The notes beneath the pieces are model-generated. The model was not told where the DNA came from and did not search any database. It was given only the letters and a program-made list of their open reading frames with translations. A stretch of DNA of 64,000 nt, from the NCBI GenBank assembly GCA_964016885.1, contig OZ024743.1, positions 230,268,001 to 230,332,000 on the forward strand, read 5' to 3'. The position numbers and the translations under genes are program-made. The DNA is from Eledone cirrhosa. Taxonomy: Eukaryota. Positions 8,666-60,796 of this stretch are shown in pieces. Position 1 is the stretch's first letter. Each line of letters opens with the position of its first letter.

Positions 8666-9640
8666 GCTACTCCCTCTCCTACTTCCTCCCGTTTCAACTG
8701 TGCGAGATTCTTTTCTAACTCACACTTCGACCAGGTCGGATGGTCTGTATTCTCTATCGTCTACGATTTCACAGAACTTATGTTCATCGATTTCAGGGAC
8801 TTGACTCCTTCTTCCTCCCGTTTGAACTGTGCGAAATTCTTTCCTTACTCACATTTCGACCAGGTAGGATGGTCTTTATTCTCTCTCGTCCACGATTTCA
8901 CAGAACTTATGTTCCTCGATTCCAGGGACTTGACTCCTTCTTCCTAACTTTTCGTTGCATTACCATCTTTGTTTGTTTACTGTCTCGCTCGTTCCCCCTA
9001 TTTACGTGTCCCAACGACTTTCTTTAGCCGCTGCTCGCACCAACCAGAGGTATATGGTCTTTAAAGCGATGAAATACCAATGAAGGCTGGAATATCACTG
9101 ATGAAGGACTAAATTTATTCATATGTAATCCATTTGCAACCATGCAGCACGCCATGTTTTCATATTTTTCATATATATTTTCCTCCGCTGTGACCCGTCT
9201 GTTTCTTTCTTACTGCTTCCCCTTTTCTCTCTATCTCTCACTTCATTTTACCCCCTCTACCAGTCACTCTCTCTGTTAGGCTCTTCCTCACACTTTCACA
9301 CACTCACTCTCTGCTACTCCCTCTCCTACTTCCACCCGTTTGACCTGTGCGAGATTCTTTCCTCACTCAAACTTCGACCAGATCGGATGGTCATTATTCT
9401 CTCTCGTCTACGATTTCACAGAACATATGTTCATCGATTTCAGGGACTTGACTCCTTCTTTCTCAGTTTTCGTTGCATTACCATCTTTGTTTGTTTACAG
9501 TCTCGCTCGTTCCCCTTATTTACGTGTCCCAACGACTTTCTTTAGCCGTTACTCACACCAACCAGAGGTGTATGGTCTTTAAAGCGATGAAATACCAATG
9601 AAGGCTGGAAGATCACTAATGAAGGACTACATTTATTCAT
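8666..9640 (+). repeat. Family A tandem copy (~520-bp period, first unit with ~120-bp internal duplication)
   Basis: tatggtctttaaagcgatgaaataccaatgaagg at ~9052 and ~9570; flanked by TA-rich microsatellite. Confidence 0.85.
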
Positions 9641-9658
9641 ATATATATATATATATGT

Positions 9659-9736
<78 letters not shown>

Positions 9737-9737
9737 G

Positions 9738-9806
<69 letters not shown>

Positions 9807-10308
9807 ATGTGTGTGTATATGTATATATATATATATGTATATATGTATATATATATATGTGTATATGTATATGTGTATGTGTGTGTATGTGTATATGTAT
9901 GTATGTATACATCGTATACCTTCCCGCCATATGGTTGAACGTCTGAAAGTATATACTTTCCAATGCATATTAACGGCTGTGCAGCCTAATTTGCACATCG
10001 AGTGAGTACAGTCGGCCGGGCGCACGGAAAACGATAAATGGAATAGAATGAAACGAAATTTCATTTCTCACTCTTAGTACGGCACTTACTTAAATGTAAG
10101 TATGTATGTATACGTACATACATATATGTAAACAGACGTACAGTAATATGTATATATATATACATTTCGTTTCATTCTATTCCATTCATCGTTTTCGGCG
10201 CGCCCGGCCGACTGAACTCACTGGATATGCAAATTAGGCTGCTCAGCCGTTAATATGCATAAGGAAAGTATATACTTTCAGACGTTCAACCATCTGGCAG
10301 GAAGGTAT

Positions 10309-10351
10309 ACGATGCTGACGATAGCTAATAAGCTTGAAACTAGTACATCGT
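10309..10351 (+). ncRNA. Minimal type I hammerhead ribozyme
   Basis: acgatg-CTGACGA-tagctaataagctt-GAAAC-ta-GTA|catcgt. Stem I is a perfect 6 bp and helix III is the palindrome ACTAGT; predicted cleavage after 10345. Confidence 0.9.
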
Positions 10352-10748
10352 TCTTGTGTCAGTGTTGAACAAAAAGGTGACGTTGTTGCCTAAACACTGT
10401 ACGGCGTAATTCGGGCTGTTTGTTTGTTTACAAACAAACCGAGTATTATACTAAATGTTCGGTAAACCGATACGTGCATATATATATGTGTGCATGTATG
10501 TATATATATACATACTACTGTACGTCTGTATACATATATGTATGTACGTATACATACATACGTACTTACATTTAAGTAAGTGCCGTACTAAGAGTGAGAA
10601 ATGAAATTTCGTTTCATTCTATTCCATTTATCGTTTTCGCTGCGCCCGGGACTGAACTCACTCGATATGCAAGTTAGGCTGCTCAGCCGTTAATATGCAT
10701 AAGGAAAGTATATACTTTCAGACGTTCAACCATCTGGCAGGAAGGTAT

Positions 10749-10791
10749 ACGATGCTGACGATAGCTAATAATCTTGAAACTAGTACATCGT
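10749..10791 (+). ncRNA. Minimal type I hammerhead ribozyme (second tandem unit)
   Basis: Same as 10309 with one stem II change (aatctt); predicted cleavage after 10785. Confidence 0.85.
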
Positions 10792-11060
10792 TCCTGTGTC
10801 AGTGTTGAACAAAAAGGTGACGAGGTTTCCTAAATACTACGGCGTAATTCGGGCTGTTTGTTTGTTTACAAACAAACCGAGCATTATAATAAATATTCGG
10901 TAAACCGATACGTGCATATATATATATATGTGTGCATGTATGTATATATATACATACTACTGTACGTCTGTATACATATATATATGTACGTATACATACA
11001 TACATACTTACATATATATATATGTATGTATGTATATATGTATATGTATGTATGTGTATA

Positions 11061-18041: not shown

Positions 18042-19600
18042 TAAACGGAATAGAAAATGCTGAAAAATTGTTCACAGTTGAAAAATGGTTTAATTAGGAA
18101 TAAAAGAGTATTAGTGATTGTATGGGTTAGTATTCAGTTGTGGTTTTAAGTTTTTAAGTTTTAGGGTGATTTCCAGGTATCCCATGACTAGGTTGGCATA
18201 AGTAGGGGCTGTTTTCGTTCCCATAGCGTTTCCAGATTTCTGTCTGTAGGATTTGTTATTGAAAACGAAGTAATTGTTCTCCAAGATAAATTTGAGTCCC
18301 TCTATCACGAATTCTTTTTTGATGCGTTGTGGAGTTCATTGTGGAAATTATCCAGCCAGAATTGGATAGCTTCTAATCCTAGGTTGTGGGGATGTTGGAG
18401 TATAGGTTGACTACATCGAACGTCACTAGTAGGGTTTGTTCAGAAAGTGGCATATTAGGGAGGTGATTGAGCATATCTAGGTCGTCCCTTATATAGCTTT
18501 TGATGTGCTTGAGGAAGGGTTTGAGAAGGGTATCAATGAAGTTGCTAAGACGGTGCGTTTCGCAAGCGGGGCCTGCTATTATAGGTCTTAATTTGAGATC
18601 ATTGAGGGGACATTGATGACTATGTCTGTGGCTTCCTTGCATGCCTTACTTATTGATTCGCTTTTATGTACTTTAGGGATACCGTAGAAAAGGCTGAATT
18701 TACTTGTGAAGTCTGTGATGAAGCTGAATTCCTTGTTAGTGAGTCCTTCTTTGTATTGGTTGATTAGAGTTTTTAGGTTTCTCATAATTTTCTGTTGATT
18801 GTAGTGTTCAGCCTTTTCGTAGTATGTTTCGTTTTCCAAAGTGGAGAGCGCTAAGTTGATATAGAATTCTGTCTCCATTAGGACTACTGTACTCCCTTTA
18901 TCAGCCTCTTTAATTGTAATGGTTCTGTCGGTTTTTAATCTATTTAATTCTTCCCATTCTTTCTTGTTGAGGTTTGGCTTGTGTTTTTGTCTGTGCAAGT
19001 GTTGGTAAGGGAAGTTTGTGATGTGTTCATAGAATTCGTCCAGGATTTTATTTCTACCTTTTGAAGAGGTGTAATTGCTTCTATTTCTGGCTAATGATTG
19101 ATCCTCATTGTACTGGTCGAATAGTTGTTCACTAAGTCGTAACTTTCTACAGAAGTCTGTGATGTCTTCCTTCATTTCATAGTAGTTAGGACGTAGTAGG
19201 GTCGCTGTGAATTTAAGACCTTTGGAGAGTAAGTTGATAAGGTTGGGTGTTGGTTCTGCACTAGTAAGATTGATAATTTGTATTACTATCGGTTTCTCCT
19301 CCCTGTCTTGTGTTATTTTGTTTGCCTGTATCTGTGTGCTGTGTCTAAAAAATGGTTGGGGTAGAGGGGTTGTCTGCTGATGTTAAGTGGTCTCCTGTGT
19401 TTGTTATATTCCTTGTTGTTGTAAAATGTGGTTCGGGTTGGTGGTTGTAGATTGAATGGGGTGTTCCTGTACTGCGAGTATGGGTGTGTGTTTCTATGTG
19501 CCATGTTGTATTGTGGTGTTATAAATGGCCTACGTTGTTGGTTGTATCGTGTGGTGTGGGTTTGTTGTGTATTGTGGAAGTGAGAGTTGAGAAAATGGTA
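18038..19600 (-). mobile_element. Neptune-like Penelope element, internally deleted; RT N-terminal half with frameshifts plus upstream ORF remnant
   Basis: Motifs IINLT..LLSKGLKF, ITIKEADKGSTVVLM, FYGIPKVHK, LRPIIAG, LVTFDVVNLYSNIP, YRQKSGNAMGTKTAPTYANLVMGYLE. After these it joins a terminal repeat (18038-18162) shared with 57039-57435. Confidence 0.9.
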
Positions 19601-20502: not shown

Positions 20503-23197
20503 CAGTGTGTTCGTGCTCTTCGTGGAGCTGAGTGCTGGACGGATCACCGCCTGGTACGCGCAAAAGTGAAACTAATCACTAAACGTAAAATCCGGGCTAC
20601 TGGTGTTGCCCTGCCCAAAAGATTGAATGCTGCTCATCTTAAGGATAAAAATGTGAAGAGGACATTGGAAGAAGAGATGCAGGCTGCAGATCTTGGTGAG
20701 GATTGGCCGACCCTTAAAAAAGTCGGTTTATGATGTAGGCAGGCGTGTTCTGGGATTGGTGCAGAGAAAACATCAGGACGGGTTTAATGAGAATGATGTA
20801 AATATAGAAGACTTGTTGGCTGATAAGAGGCGTGCTCTGTCACGCTACTTGACGGCAAAACCACAGGAGAGCAATACGTTGCATGAGGAACTCAAGGATG
20901 TAAAATCACGTGTTAGGCGGAGTCTTTCTCAGATGAAGGATCAGTGGTTGAGTGAGAAGGCTGGTGAGATACAAACTGCGTCAGATTCCAATAACACAAA
21001 GCTGTTGTACAGTCTCTTGCGTGAGGTTTATGGACCGTCTTCTTCTCTGGTGACACCGCTTCGCAGCAAGGATGGCAGAGAACTTCTTTGTGACTCACAA
21101 GGAATTCTACGAAGGTGGCGAGAGCACTTTGATGATCTTTTGAATTAGCCGTCTGTCGTCAGTGAAGATTTTCTCAGTCTCATTCCAGAAAGTCCTGTGA
21201 AAGTAGCTCTCGCAGAACCTCCGACGCTTGTGGAGGTTGCAGTGGCTATCTCGAAGCTGAACAGTGGAAGGTATCCAGGTATGGATGGCATACATGCTGA
21301 GCTCCTACAATGTAGTGGTGAGAGACTCCTGCAACATCTTCACTCTTTGTTTGGCAGGATATGGGCTAATGAATCCGTACCTGAGGACTGGAGAGATGCA
21401 GTAATGGTGGTCTTGTACAAGGGAAAGGGTAACAGGAATGATTGTGGGAACTACAGAGGTATATCATTGCTTTCTGTCGTAGGGAAAGTTTTATGTAGGG
21501 TGCTTCTGGACCGTCTGCTGACACACATTGCAAATTGTGTTCTCCCTGAAAGTCAATCCGGTTTTCATGCTGGACGCAGCACTACTGATATGATCTTCTC
21601 AGCTAGACAGCTCCAGGAGAAGTGCATGGAATAAGGTTTGGATCTGCATCAGGTTTTTGTCGATCTGACAAAAGCTTTCGATACTGTTAACAGAGATGCA
21701 TTATGGAAGGTTCTCCAGAAACTTGGTTGCCCTGATAAGTTCCTTGCTTTAGTTAGATCTTTCCATGACGACATGAAGGCTTGGGTTAATGTCTGAGGTA
21801 ACATGTCAGAGCCTATCTCAGTAAAAAATGGAGTGAAACATGGGGATATTCCGGCACCGACCCTGTTTGCCATATATTTTGCAATGGTTTTCTGTAATGC
21901 ATTCAGGAATTGCGAGCATGGTGTTTACATCCGATATCGAACATCAGGCAGCATATTTAACATCAGGCACATAGCTGCAAAGACAAAAGTATTTACATTA
22001 ATCATAAGAGACCTCTTGTATGCAGATGATTGCAATCTTGTAGCGCACACAGAGAGTGATATGCAGCACATTTTGAATGCATTTTCTGACGCTTGCACTG
22101 CCCTAGGATTGACTGTTAGTTTCAAGAAAACCGTCGTCATGTACCAACCTGCCCCTGGTAAGCAGTACACTGAACCAAATATCTATGTGTATGGTAAACG
22201 ACTTGGGGTGGTTGATCAGTTTGTCTACCTGGGAAGCACTGTCAATCGATACAGCAACCTTGACAGTGAAATCTCACTTAGGATTAGGAAAGCAAGTGAT
22301 GCATTCGGAAAGTTAGAAAGGCGACTCTGGGTTCGAAGAGACATATGCAGGAGGACAAGGCATGTGTAAAAGGCATGTGTGCTCTCTTGTCTTATTTATG
22401 CCTGCGAGACCTGGGTCACATATCGACACGACCTTAAGCAATTGGAGCGTTTCCATCAGATGTGTCTCAGACGGATCCATGGCGTTCACTGTAGGGACCA
22501 CATCAGTGATGTCGAGATTTTGGAAAGCTCTATGTGTGACAGTATAGAAGCTCTTGTGCTTAAGCAACGACTCCGTTGGAGTGGTCACCTTGCCAGGAGG
22601 AAGGATTCTAGAATACCAAAACATCTCTTTTATGGAGAGTTGGTTAAAGGAAAACGACTGCCACATAAACCAAAAAAGAGGTATAAGGATTCCTTGAAAG
22701 CCTATTTGAAAGACGCTAACATCACTGCTGATACATGGGAAAATGTTGCTGCTGATCGTAATACAGGGAGAAAGACTGTATATGAGGGAAAAGTTGCCTT
22801 TGAGGCATCTCGAATCGCATACGAGAAAGTAAAGCGGGATGAGAGGAAGAGCATTGCAGTTGCACTTCCAGACGGCGAAGGTCCTGCTATGGTGCTGACA
22901 TGCAGCGTCTGTGCGAGACTCTGCCTAAGCAAAGCTGGACTCGAAAGTCATCTTCGCAGTCATAAAGTAAGACCAGTGGTTGACTACCAGGCTGCTGTTG
23001 GAGATGCTACTCATCATGCTTGCCAAGCATGTGGTAGAGAATGTAAATCAGCAGGAGGGCTCAAACGACATGCAAACGTAGATGAACTCCAACCACAGCC
23101 GGCTATTCCCAGTGAATGTTTTGGTTGCCGACTCTGTGCAAGACATTTTAGATCATTGGCTGGGCTAAAAAGCCACATTCGATCGCAGCGTTGTTAG
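20503..23197 (+). pseudogene. 5'-truncated RTE-clade LINE ORF (AP-endonuclease tail, RT, three C2H2 fingers), with several stops and frameshifts
   Basis: Motifs AECWTDHRLVRA, PGMDGIHAELL, GNYRGISLLSVVGK, PESQSGF..GRSTTDMIF, FVDLTKAFD, GVKHGDIPAPTLF, LLYADD, QFVYLGS, LRWSGHL..YGEL, CSVC..SHLRSH. Confidence 0.95.
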
Positions 23198-33977: not shown

Positions 33978-35780
33978 CTATCCGTTAGGGTATAACGTGT
34001 GGCTGTAATACAGTAAAATTTTGTGCAATTTATGTTTACAAGCCGAAATTGCCTCAGATGTTTTGTTTAATATGTGGTCTGTGGCGTAGAGTATTTCCAG
34101 GGCCTCAGCGGCGCAGAGGTCACATGGTCTTTTATTTCCGTTATACGATCTAGCCCTTGCTAGGATCTCCCAGTGTAACTTATATTGGGTGTGGTTGTCT
34201 TTTAGACTCCAGATATAAGCTGAAAGTGACGTCATATTCCTTCTTAGAGGGTAACGAAAATAATGGGTATGCATGTAAAGACGCTGCTTGAATCTATTGG
34301 CAGTTATCCCTATGTAGGCCCTACGGGACGTGGGTGTTACAACCTTACATTTGTAGACAATGTTACTAGAGAGGCATTTCCCGGATAGGAGACAATCAAC
34401 CTGATTCCTACAATTACAGTTAGTACTAACTACAGGGTTGCACGTGTTCCTACGGCTAGGTAGTTTGGCTAAATTTGAAGCTGTGATGTTATGTGTAAGG
34501 TTAGGAGTCGTAGAGTAAGACATTTTAATAGTATTTCTTATGAAAAATTTACTATATTTATGTGTAGGGGGAAAATGCTTCGTAATAAGGGAAAGACAGA
34601 TCTTAGCTAATGGTGTGGCCACCTCCATATTATATGGTGGGTTATACCAACAAATGCGACGGGATCTATTTCTTCTAGGTCTATTTTCGTACTCTGTATA
34701 TGCTACCTTATCGACAAATCCACTTCGAGCAAGAGCTTCATTGTAATAAGTGGAATGGTCGTAGAAAATACGCTCGTTGGTGGAAAGACGGGAAAGCCTT
34801 AAAGAAAAGTTTCTTACCAGGTTCTTGGTTATGCTGGCAAGAAGGTTGGAATGCTTACTTATGTAATTAAGCGTATCATTCGGCTTTCTATACGGGTAAT
34901 ACAACCCATTCAATAAGTTGAGGGTAACGTCGAGGTAATTAACGACCGAGAGATTAGCCTCAACCTGTATAGAGAGGTTGAAGCCTTTAAAGAAGGCTGT
35001 GAGTTCTTTTCTGAACCTGTCGCAAGCACGAGGTCCGCACTTATTCATGGTCAAACGACCATCGTCACGGTACAAGCCACCGCCCGCGTTGGGGAATTCG
35101 TCCTTGATAGAGAAAAGAAGGAAAAGGCCGATAAGATCAGTAACCTCCGCAGAATCACTGGCGCCCATACTAACGTCGAATGGGGTACTTTTGGATTTTT
35201 TTATCCAAATAGAGTCGTCGAAATTAATCACCGACTTTCGGGCATTGAGGATGACATCAACTTCGAAATCCTTAACCACTGTGAGTGTTTTAGCGAAATT
35301 GATAGCTCTAAGGAGAAGTGGTAAAGTGATGGAGGAGTAGTAATTGCTGATGTCGAATTGGATAAAACGGCAATGTTCCTTGTTACATATGCCGTTGAAC
35401 CAATCAATCACCGCGAAAGAATTGTTCCACAGTGCAAGAGGGGAGAAACTTCTAATTTCAGGTATAATTCTATCAAGAATCGTCTTACTAAGTCTACCTA
35501 AATCGGACTTCGTAGGGTTAATAAGCCGAAAAGAGGGGTTGTTCGGAAAATTTGATTTGTGATCCTTCAGGGTAAAGTGGGGAGAAATAGGGTCCAGAGG
35601 TTCGGTCCAATCCAGGATGTTGAGATCAGATGTGATTTTAAACCCAGCATCGTTGATTTCATTGATGACGCACTGATTAGTTTTACGGTAATCCTTAGTT
35701 ACAGCATTATGTAGTAGTTGATGGTAAGTACTGCGCTCCACTTGATATAGGTTGCCAGTTTTGTCGGAATGGACGTGCAA
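33978..35780 (-). CDS. PLE reverse transcriptase + GIY-YIG endonuclease (600 aa; N-terminus continues after one frameshift in 35699-36001)
   Basis: Motifs SDKTGNLY, TLKDHK..RLINPTKS, IQFDISNYYSSI, FDVSMGASDSAEV, GLYRDDG, NYLDVTL, CNC..C....C, IVYKC..YIGIT..FKQR, CDLC..E. Confidence 0.9.
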   Translation of the reverse strand: MHVHSDKTGNLYQVERSTYHQLLHNAVTKDYRKTNQCVINEINDAGFKITSDLNILDWTEPLDPISPHFTLKDHKSNFPNNPSFRLINPTKSDLGRLSKTILDRIIPEIRSFSPLALWNNSFAVIDWFNGICNKEHCRFIQFDISNYYSSITLPLLLRAINFAKTLTVVKDFEVDVILNARKSVINFDDSIWIKKSKSTPFDVSMGASDSAEVTDLIGLFLLFSIKDEFPNAGGGLYRDDGRLTMNKCGPRACDRFRKELTAFFKGFNLSIQVEANLSVVNYLDVTLNLLNGLYYPYRKPNDTLNYISKHSNLLASITKNLVRNFSLRLSRLSTNERIFYDHSTYYNEALARSGFVDKVAYTEYENRPRRNRSRRICWYNPPYNMEVATPLAKICLSLITKHFPPTHKYSKFFIRNTIKMSYSTTPNLTHNITASNLAKLPSRRNTCNPVVSTNCNCRNQVDCLLSGKCLSSNIVYKCKVVTPTSRRAYIGITANRFKQRLYMHTHYFRYPLRRNMTSLSAYIWSLKDNHTQYKLHWEILARARSYNGNKRPCDLCAAEALEILYATDHILNKTSEAISACKHKLHKILLYYSHTLYPNG

Positions 35781-36070
35781 GGCATTAGATCCTTAATAGA
35801 ACGAATTCTATTATTCAGGTCTTGCTGGAAGGAATTGCTCCTATTCCGAAATTTGATACTTCGAATGAGTTCCAAGACATCATTTTCGAAGGGTAGCAAT
35901 GGTGGGTTACACGGGGGGTTATTATAGGTTTTAAATCCAAATTTATCCTGTTTGTTGTCTGCTTTTCGCGGATTATCGAAGTAAAAGGCCCGCCAACGCA
36001 ACCTTTTAATGAACTGTTTTCTGTATCAGGAGGTTTAGGTATTTATATATATACATGCATATATATATAC

Positions 36071-59083: not shown

Positions 59084-59819
59084 TTTTAATTGAACAACCA
59101 CAAAACTCGTCGTCGTAATCGACGGAAGTCCAACACTCAGATATACGAACGTATCACTCCTAGCATATGAGGAAACAACTGGCTTGGGCCTTCATCAAAA
59201 GCCACAGGTTTGATGGATTGACGTAATATTCATTACAAAAATCAATGTATTTACATAATATCCAATATTTAAGATATGAAGATATCGAGAGGTCACGTCA
59301 CTCATTTCTCATAGACGACTGTGAGATTCCGTATACTTCATGCGTCCGACCACAGCCGTTGATGCTCTTTTCCGATGATTTCCTCTAACAGGCGTTGATA
59401 TGACAGAGTTGTTAGAACATCGACTAGAATGCTTTGTTTGTATTTTTTCCGGCTGTCTGAGCTCGAAAACGGACGATAAATAAACTCTTGTACTCTTTCG
59501 ATATTTTTGTCTTTATTTCTTTTCTAATTTCTCTTCTAATTTCTTTCTCATTTCCTCTTGATAGAAATCGGTTGTTTTAAGATCTGGAGTGATATAGGCA
59601 TCATTGCGTTTAAGTATCACCAGTGTAGCCATTCAGCAACTCAACAGATCAGTCAAGACCAATGGCATGGATTTTATAATGGCATTACTATAAAACAAAG
59701 CGATGGTTAATATAAGGATGTATGTACTCGTTTTGTTCTTGTAAAATTTGGATAAATTTGAGTGCGTATACAGAAGATAGTACTACTAGGTACTGTATAT
59801 ATATTACATAGAGTACCAC

Positions 59820-60796
59820 AGGACTTACACCCATCTCTCCAATTCACAAAAGAGATGAGTAGGACCAAATTACCATTCCGAGATATAATGATAATCAAAA
59901 ACGACACCACCATTACCACGGATATATATTATAAACACACAGACACCCATCAATATCTGAAATTTAAGTCGTGCCATCCACCTCATACAAAACGCAACAT
60001 CCCATACTGCCTAGCCAGAAGAATTTGTACCATTGTAGAAGATACGAATACCAGGTACAAACGCCTAACAGAACTAAGAGAATTTTTGCTCAAACAAAAA
60101 TACCCATCTCTACTTATAGAAAATGGCATACAGCGGGCTATAAAAATACCTATACAACAACTTAGGACAACCCAAGGAAGAAGAAACCAAGAACTGGTCA
60201 TACCATTTATAATGACACACAACCCATGTCACCAGAATATCTTCAACACTGCCAAAGCAAACATACCGATCATTGCTCAAAGTAATGAATTAAAAAGCTT
60301 AATCACAGATCGATCTTTGACTCTTAGTAAAAGACAGCTGAAAAATTTGAAGCAATTACTAACAAAAGCAAAGTTTGACCTTAACAACAAAGACCAATCA
60401 TTCACTGTATCTAAATGCAATGATAGTCGATGCGGCACATGTCAATCCATACACGCCGGCCAATATATGAAAACAAAAACTGGAAAAATATTCCCAAATG
60501 CAAATATGAACTGCAAAAGCAGAAATCTAATTTACTGCATTAAATGCCCGAATTGTGAAGAACTATATGTCGGTCAAACTGGAAATGCACTATCGGAACG
60601 TGCACGGGTACATGGTCAGCAAATCAGAGACCCAATTGTCCGTCAGATACCCCTAAGTAACCATCTAGCAACATGTGGTCAGGGAATATTTATAATATTC
60701 CCATTCTACAAATTACACAGCCCAAGTGAAATCAAGAGAAAAATCAAAGAAAATAATTTTATTGATAAATTCAAACCCAAGCTAAATGAACAATAA
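59820..60796 (+). pseudogene. 5'-truncated Neptune-like PLE: RT thumb, Cys linker and GIY-YIG endonuclease (open frame)
   Basis: Motifs LHPSLQFT.E..LPFRDI, TDIYYKHTDTHQYL..SCHP, CNDSRCGTC, NCKSRNLIYCIKCPNC..YVGQT..L.ER..H, FKPKLN. Confidence 0.92.

What the first reader, a model, noticed from the sequence alone, without database searches (positions are those of the whole stretch)
9906..11020. Retrozyme-like dimer predicting a 440-nt self-excised (circular) RNA, with inversion at stem I
Seen: two hammerheads whose cleavage sites (10345, 10785) are 440 nt apart in a non-coding tandem. The inverted copy ends exactly at acgatg, the 5' strand of stem I, immediately before CTGACGA. Established: tandem hammerhead repeats give monomer and circular RNAs in non-LTR retrozymes, and a palindromic helix III (ACTAGT) allows dimeric folding. 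Inference: this is an active or recently active retrozyme family with a template switch at stem I.
Basis: partly seen in the sequence, partly recalled or inferred. Interest (0 to 1): 0.75.

Follow-up and report, generated by a model that had tools for sequence, protein, structure and literature searches.

The report
Aged copy of Penelope-moved hammerhead retrozyme
This is one aged, partly damaged copy of a very abundant non-coding repeat that carries a self-cutting RNA motif and was likely pasted around this animal genome by a Penelope-type jumping-gene enzyme; its mirror-image arm is the family's normal insertion shape, and its stop at the ribozyme stem is a one-off.

Summary
The anatomy is real: two type I hammerheads cut after 10345 and 10785, the 440-nt unit folds strongly (z -7.4), helix III is palindromic, and the inverted arm ends at the 5' strand of stem I. 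The hammerhead core has 23,229 exact matches in this 3.0-Gb genome. Copies have ragged 5' ends, end at two fixed sites 57 nt apart before (TA)n, and are often two-armed; 74 of 80 two-armed insertions use one site per arm. That is the Penelope-like footprint, so this is a non-LTR retrozyme likely moved by a Penelope-type enzyme. The strand switch lies at 10164-10165, not at stem I, and a stem-I end is a one-off (2 exact matches, one of them not an end, against 1,467 for the long site). The second hammerhead has a private G>T at 10772 that is predicted to unfold stem II (0.03 against 0.96), so this copy is a poor circle source. Young sister subfamilies are recently active. No RNA data and no partner element were found. 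The scan reported sister families in this genome before.

The parts
9640..9909 (.). (TA)n/(TATG)n microsatellite, left target; shared with a neighbouring 518-bp repeat
   Evidence: sequence; 209 of 268 canonical family ends abut TA-rich sequence
9910..10165 (-). Inverted arm: unit positions 149-409 (unit position 1 = 10346); non-canonical outer end at the 5' strand of stem I
   Evidence: 11 mismatches in 254 aligned bases and 4 gaps against 10494-10754
10164..10165 (.). Head-to-head joint of the two arms (the strand switch), 2-nt overlap
   Evidence: (D11); 103 such joints in 99 of 177 loci
10164..11013 (+). Direct arm, 1.9 tandem units (unit positions 261-440, 1-440, 1-about 226), ending at the short fixed site
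   Evidence: units differ at 16 of 404 aligned bases plus 3 gaps
10309..10351 (+). Type I hammerhead 1, intact family form; predicted cut after 10345
   Evidence: stem I 0.88, stem II 0.96 mean pair probability; 1,810 exact matches of the core
10346..10785 (+). Unit-length 440-nt RNA between the two predicted cuts
   Evidence: -139.2 kcal/mol, z -7.37, 0 of 100 shuffles (part of the signal is the TA-rich hairpin)
10470..10575 (+). TA-rich long hairpin inside the unit; short fixed end site at about 10571-10574 (unit 226-229)
10575..10631 (+). 57-nt 'tail' between the short and the long fixed end site (unit 286 = 10631)
   Evidence: 1,467 exact matches of the long end running into TA
10749..10791 (+). 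Type I hammerhead 2, damaged: G>T at 10772 turns a C-G pair of stem II into C.U; predicted cut after 10785
   Evidence: 0 of 174 other units carry T there; stem II 0.03; isolated stem II unfolded
11014..11059 (.). (TA)n/(TATG)n microsatellite, right target
   Evidence: no target-site duplication can be told in microsatellite

Best explanation
This is an aged, two-armed copy of a non-coding hammerhead repeat with over 23,000 core matches in the genome, likely inserted by a Penelope-type reverse transcriptase-endonuclease working in trans. Shown: fixed 3' ends at two sites 57 nt apart, (TA)n targets, ragged 5' ends, head-to-head arms with one site per arm, and arms that run through the cut site. 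Inferred: the enzyme nicks both strands of a (TA)n tract, starts reverse transcription at the two internal sites on unit RNA, and the two copies join at their truncated ends. The template was continuous across the cut site, so it was a ligated circle or an uncut multimer, not the cut linear monomer; I put the circle at about 55%. The hammerhead has a one-pair helix III and a U.U at the base of stem II, so it would cut well mainly as a double hammerhead. In this copy the inverted arm should have ended at the long site (10631-equivalent); its end at stem I is most likely a later deletion or a polymerase jump. The change at 10772 likely cripples one of the two cuts, so this locus is probably not a present source of circles.
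For: Copy number. Ends: 268 of 319 arm 3' ends at unit 279-286 or 206-233, and 209 of those 268 followed by TA-rich sequence against 4 of 51 other ends. Head-to-head joints in 49 of 86 hammerhead-anchored loci. One long and one short end in 74 of 80 pairs with two canonical ends, binomial p 3e-16 against one half; the same pattern at homologous sites in a distant 463-465-nt family. The two arms of a locus are usually closer than other loci (median fraction closer 0.095 over 84 pairs). About 4 of 68 passes stop in unit positions 1-20, near the mean rate of about 0.05 per bin. Autonomous Penelope-like elements are abundant (10,596 GIY-YIG candidates) and two of their families also end at two sites before (TA)n. 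The published footprint matches: inverted 5'-truncated copy, tail at one end, (TA)n targets (PMC8557442); two start sites and extension of both strands in vitro (PMC11167929).
Against: No autonomous partner with this unit as its terminal repeat among 50 GIY-YIG loci, 208 family loci or 30 variant-hammerhead loci. The tail (57 nt) is longer than the 30-40 bp in print. 35 of 116 two-armed pairs with both ends in view have one non-canonical end, so rearrangement is common and this locus's history cannot be read uniquely: the 16 bases beyond the arm also match the unit just before the short site. Some arrays grew or changed at DNA level (L269, L278, L267). Samples L033-L182 come mostly from one chromosome and were anchored on exact matches.
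Confidence: 0.85

Rival explanations
1. One reading: this locus is an active dimer that releases a 440-nt RNA which circularises, and the inversion was made by a template switch at stem I.
For: Two hammerhead cores with all core bases present, 440 nt apart; strong fold; analogous repeats give circles in coral, mussel and axolotl (PMC7229834); stem I is self-complementary and could guide a jump.
Against: The switch is at 10164-10165. Stem I running into TATA has 2 exact matches, the other being a 9-nt internal duplication; 2 of 317 arm ends fall in unit 400-415, about what an even spread of the non-canonical ends gives. Hammerhead 2 stem II 0.03, and 0.05 in the circle. A read-through RNA that includes the inverted arm traps one stem I in duplex (0.98-0.99). 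The 2 matches to this copy's circle junction are 84-94% alike and not daughters. Only 1 of 9 Xenopus dimers cut in vitro (10.64898/2026.07.22.740005).
Confidence: 0.07
2. The family is moved by Penelope-type enzymes but only from uncut linear multimer transcripts; the hammerhead trims transcripts or is nearly idle and no circle serves as template. (A variant of the best explanation in the template step; about 45% within it.)
For: For the anole element, hammerhead cutting was not needed and unprocessed RNA was the main substrate in vitro (PMC11167929). Weak helix III and stem II base. Single-haplotype arrays also follow from homogeneous source arrays. Shared 'private' variants of array L265 proved to be a young subfamily.
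Against: Arms of up to 9 units with intact hammerheads and both canonical ends; stems kept by two-sided changes between families and all common variants inside the ribozyme at tolerated or paired positions, which points to selection for cutting.
Confidence: 0.38
3. A satellite-like repeat spread by DNA-level events, the hammerhead being a relic and the inversion a repair fold-back in a TA hairpin.
For: The joint lies in the TA-rich hairpin; L269 has an A-B-A-B pattern that fits unequal exchange.
Against: Dispersed copies with two fixed ends and ragged starts, one site per arm in 74 of 80, only 15 of 86 hammerhead-anchored loci with two or more tandem hammerheads.
Confidence: 0.04
4. A SINE-like element moved by a LINE enzyme, with inversions made by twin priming as in L1 (recalled mechanism).
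For: LINE-type reverse transcriptase fragments occur in the window; twin priming gives 5' inversions (recalled).
Against: No A-tail; the two arms overlap in sequence and each has its own fixed outer end, whereas twin priming gives adjacent, non-overlapping pieces with a variable inner start (recalled).
Confidence: 0.04

Closest known systems
Metazoan non-LTR retrozymes (Cervera and de la Pena 2020, PMC7229834, parts 2-4 of 6 read; Li, Clavereau and Pollet 2026, 10.64898/2026.07.22.740005, parts 1-3 of 5 read)
   Same: Non-coding tandem units of 150-450 bp with one type I hammerhead each, low GC, highly self-paired unit, very high copy number, coexisting with Penelope-like elements. Helix III of one pair with a palindromic tetraloop as in axolotl HHR_Amex1; U.U at the base of helix II as in HHR_Amex2.
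   Different: Both weak features sit in one ribozyme. Two-armed insertions with two fixed ends are not described in the parts read. No RNA or circle shown here. No terminal-repeat match to a named autonomous element.
Penelope-like elements with endonuclease: insertion footprint (Craig et al. 2021, PMC8557442, passages read; Frangieh et al. 2024, PMC11167929, parts 1-2 of 4 read)
   Same: 5' truncation, partial tandems, an inverted 5'-truncated copy, a tail at one end set by two start sites, AT-rich or (TA)n targets, a hammerhead upstream of the start sites.
   Different: No ORF; tail of 57 nt rather than 30-40; the whole element is one terminal-repeat-sized unit.
Non-autonomous Chlamys elements such as MRC1 (PMC8557442, passage read)
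   Same: Non-coding Penelope-like derivatives with multicopy head-to-tail insertions.
   Different: Those resemble an autonomous family at the 3' end and their clade lacks canonical hammerheads; here the hammerhead is present and the partner unknown.
Plant LTR retrozymes (as described in PMC7229834 and the 2026 preprint; PMC4918200 seen as listing only)
   Same: Two hammerheads framing a unit-length RNA.
   Different: Type III hammerheads in LTRs with primer site, purine tract and 4-bp duplications; this has type I motifs in tandem units.

Membership tests
Metazoan non-LTR retrozyme | Type I hammerhead with conserved core in each unit | tested here: met
   hammerhead 2 keeps the core but has a broken stem II pair; Rfam models do not match
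Metazoan non-LTR retrozyme | Short (about 150-450 bp) non-coding tandem units, low GC, many copies | tested here: met
   440-nt unit, no ORF; sister units 422-538 nt; 23,229 core matches
Metazoan non-LTR retrozyme | Highly self-paired unit RNA | tested here: met
   z -7.37; circular fold -132.8 kcal/mol
Metazoan non-LTR retrozyme | Self-cleavage of the transcript | not testable with these tools
   needs in vitro transcription
Metazoan non-LTR retrozyme | Linear and circular unit RNAs in cells | not testable with these tools
   no RNA holder listed; runs laid were contigs of unknown kind
Non-autonomous Penelope-like element | Fixed 3' ends at two sites (tail) with ragged 5' ends | tested here: met
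   268 of 319 arm ends; 1,467 exact long ends; this copy's direct arm ends at the short site
Non-autonomous Penelope-like element | Inverted 5'-truncated copy adjacent to the 5' end, tail at one end only | tested here: met
   49 of 86 loci; 74 of 80 pairs; in this copy the inverted arm's end is non-canonical
Non-autonomous Penelope-like element | (TA)n or AT-rich targets | tested here: met
   209 of 268 canonical ends
Non-autonomous Penelope-like element | Shared terminal repeat with an autonomous RT + GIY-YIG element | tested here: inconclusive
   not found in 50 of 10,596 GIY-YIG candidates nor beside family copies; one 13-of-14-base resemblance at an end
Autonomous Penelope-like element | ORF with reverse transcriptase and GIY-YIG | tested here: not met
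   no ORF in the element
Plant LTR retrozyme | Type III hammerhead in LTRs around a different internal region | tested here: not met
   type I topology, tandem units

The most novel reading that the evidence does not exclude
The family's insertions record one small circular RNA being copied from both sides of a single DNA break by a dimeric Penelope-type enzyme, each half starting at its own fixed site and able to run round the circle many times; 74 of 80 two-armed insertions with one start site per arm, and single-haplotype two-armed arrays of up to 9 units per arm, would then be a genomic record of the proposed but unshown circular-RNA route of retrotransposition.
Probability: 0.45. Interest if true: 0.7.

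Novelty: new member of a known kind. Interest (0 to 1): 0.4.

Why it matters
The locus itself is an ordinary aged copy. The family matters modestly: it ties animal retrozymes to Penelope-type enzymes by insertion footprint rather than by co-occurrence, and its strict one-site-per-arm rule links the two start sites and two-strand extension seen in vitro for one element to real insertions. If the template is a circle, young members offer a direct test of circular-RNA retrotransposition. Young intact arrays, not this copy, are the material for that test.

Tried and rejected
Rfam: no match at gathering score; at E up to 10 only TA-repeat-driven matches far below cut-off, no hammerhead model. RNA: no RNA holder listed; three contig sets of unknown kind were laid and say nothing on expression. 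Stem I as a recurrent switch point: rejected. Pile-up of 5' ends at the cut site, expected for cut linear templates: not seen. Daughters of this copy's circle: 2 pattern matches, neither a daughter. Array-private variants as proof of a circle: one search suggested them for L265, but the genome search found 99-100% relatives at other loci, so the argument was dropped. A-B-A-B array L269 as a dimeric circle: its end units fit unequal exchange better. Partner search: 30 best and 20 long-ORF GIY-YIG loci; the look-alike end beside L253 proved to be a separate 463-465-nt non-coding relative; 30 of 76 variant-hammerhead matches had no adjoining ORF in place. Target-site duplication: unreadable in microsatellite. 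The bacterial promoter scan does not apply to an animal and was not used. Look-ups of earlier notes by sequence and near place were empty. The host's taxon was not tested; 'cephalopod' comes only from earlier notes. Rows dropped before counts: 5 duplicate loci, 24 overlapping loci, alignments confined to the TA tract or under 70-75% identity, arms cut by a locus edge (6 pairs).

Full report
What is there. The region holds an inverted arm (9910-10165) joined head to head to a direct arm (10164 to about 11013) of 1.9 units of 440 nt, between two TA-rich microsatellites. Below, unit position 1 is window 10346, the base after the first predicted cut. The direct arm has two type I hammerheads: a six-pair stem I, CTGACGA, a stem II of four pairs on a U.U, GAAA, the palindrome ACTAGT and the cut after A10345 or A10785. 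The unit folds at -139.2 kcal/mol, z -7.37, 0 of 100 shuffles. No ORF of 150 aa lies in it. Rfam does not recognise the motif. The fold is supported by relatives: across 9 sequences, 5 of 12 pairs change on both sides, 0 of 500 shuffles as high, though most of these changes come from one distant family. In an unselected contig set, variants above 5% inside the ribozyme fall at the variable core base, loop II and one stem I pair whose two sides both vary.

The family. The window's 40-nt core has 1,810 exact matches in the 3.0-Gb genome, and the core with two free positions has 23,229; reversed controls give 0. The 40 best matches to 10180-10470 are the window itself and 39 others at 96-98%, so this copy belongs to an older subfamily. 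Its two units differ at 16 of 404 aligned bases plus 3 gaps. Sister subfamilies of 422 to 484 nt are younger: a 466-468-nt one has arrays 99-100% alike at dispersed places, and 7 of 7 such loci examined carry a single haplotype in all units and both arms, with 4 haplotypes among them and arms of up to 9 units. A second coded organism holds a 226-nt piece with 15 differences.

How copies are built. In 177 non-redundant loci (325 arms), 268 of 319 readable 3' ends fall at unit 279-286 or 206-233, and 209 of these 268 run into TA-rich sequence, against 4 of 51 other ends; 5' ends are scattered. The long end running into TA has 1,467 exact matches. Head-to-head joints occur in 49 of 86 hammerhead-anchored loci; only 15 of 86 have two or more hammerheads in tandem. 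Of 80 two-armed insertions with both ends canonical, 74 have one long and one short end. A distant 463-465-nt family aligns along the whole unit and shows the same rule at homologous sites. The two arms of a locus are usually close relatives (median fraction of other units closer 0.095, 84 pairs). This matches the Penelope-like footprint in print: an inverted 5'-truncated copy, a tail often at one end, (TA)n targets (PMC8557442, passages), and two internal start sites with cutting and extension of both strands in vitro (PMC11167929, parts 1-2 of 4). Penelope-like elements abound here (10,596 GIY-YIG candidates; fragments in the window), and two of their families also end at two sites before (TA)n. 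The partner was not found.

The inversion and stem I. The strand switch is the joint at 10164-10165, in the TA hairpin. Stem I is the arm's outer end. As the direct arm ends at the short site, the rule predicts a long-site end for the inverted arm; the observed end at 409 is one of 35 non-canonical ends among 116 pairs with both ends in view, and these are scattered. Only 2 of 317 arm ends lie in 400-415. The exact junction has 2 matches genome-wide, and the other is a short internal duplication; this test sees only junctions into TATA. The 16 bases beyond the arm also match the unit just before the short site, so a deletion or a jump at a short homology is as possible as a true end. A rule tied to stem I is not supported.

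Would this copy make a circle? Hammerhead 1 folds (stem I 0.88, stem II 0.96). Hammerhead 2 has T at 10772 where 0 of 174 other units do; its stem II probability is 0.03, and 0.05 in the circle. By hammerhead geometry (established knowledge), in a double hammerhead each core cuts the other's site, so one of the two cuts still depends on the damaged core. A transcript that includes the inverted arm traps one stem I in duplex. The two matches to this copy's circle junction are unrelated copies. No RNA run was on offer. The helix III and stem II features resemble axolotl motifs that cut poorly alone and well as dimers (PMC7229834, parts 2-4 of 6), and only 1 of 9 Xenopus dimers cut in vitro (10.64898/2026.07.22.740005, parts 1-3 of 5).

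Circle or multimer, at family level. About 4 of 68 passes stop within 20 nt of the cut site, no more than elsewhere, so the template was continuous there: a cut linear monomer is excluded as the usual template. Long single-haplotype two-armed arrays and conserved stems favour a circle. Against: homogeneous source arrays give the same picture, an apparent private-variant signal vanished on a genome search, some arrays show DNA-level exchange, and the anole enzyme used uncut RNA in vitro. I put the circle at about 55%.

Novelty. Animal non-LTR retrozymes, their circles and their proposed Penelope origin are in print. Five searches of the held library listed no paper on this family, on a cephalopod retrozyme or on a one-site-per-arm count; I saw most hits as listings only, and subscription papers are missing. 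Earlier notes of this scan describe sister families in this genome with the same reading; they are unchecked AI notes, and I tested the overlapping claims on my own loci. Verdict: a new member of a known kind; this copy is aged and damaged; interest 0.4.

Noticed in passing
L315-L344, e.g. G000:C3:267.526-267.533 Mb: A very young 463-465-nt relative, collinear with this unit, with the same helix III palindrome but re-paired stems I and II, and ends at homologous sites (227-232 and 301), one per arm.
   Followed up: partly
   Followed up: no
window 18591-19382 (-), 33981-35792 (-), 59762-60793 (+): Fragments of three Penelope-like ORFs; the last has a GIY-YIG domain and is 95-96% alike to long ORFs elsewhere.
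   Followed up: partly
window 20657-23194 (+): Broken LINE-type reverse transcriptase with C2H2 zinc fingers at its end.
   Followed up: no
L249 and L255, 1.15-1.35 kb past the ORF end: The end of this Penelope-like family matches 13 of 14 bases just before the retrozyme's long site and has a second end about 47 nt on: a weak lead to the partner.
   Followed up: partly
L269 (G000:C1:19.315-19.317 Mb): An array of alternating units about 5% apart (A-B-A-B), best explained by unequal exchange at DNA level.
   Followed up: yes
L243 2809-5622 (-), L245 275-3562 (+): Open frames of 938 and 1096 aa with reverse transcriptase and GIY-YIG motifs: possibly intact autonomous Penelope-like copies.
   Followed up: partly
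L246, L252 (about 375 nt past the ORF), L245 7321, L252 6479: Further hammerhead motifs unlike this family's, one in the terminal repeat of a Penelope-like family.
   Followed up: no
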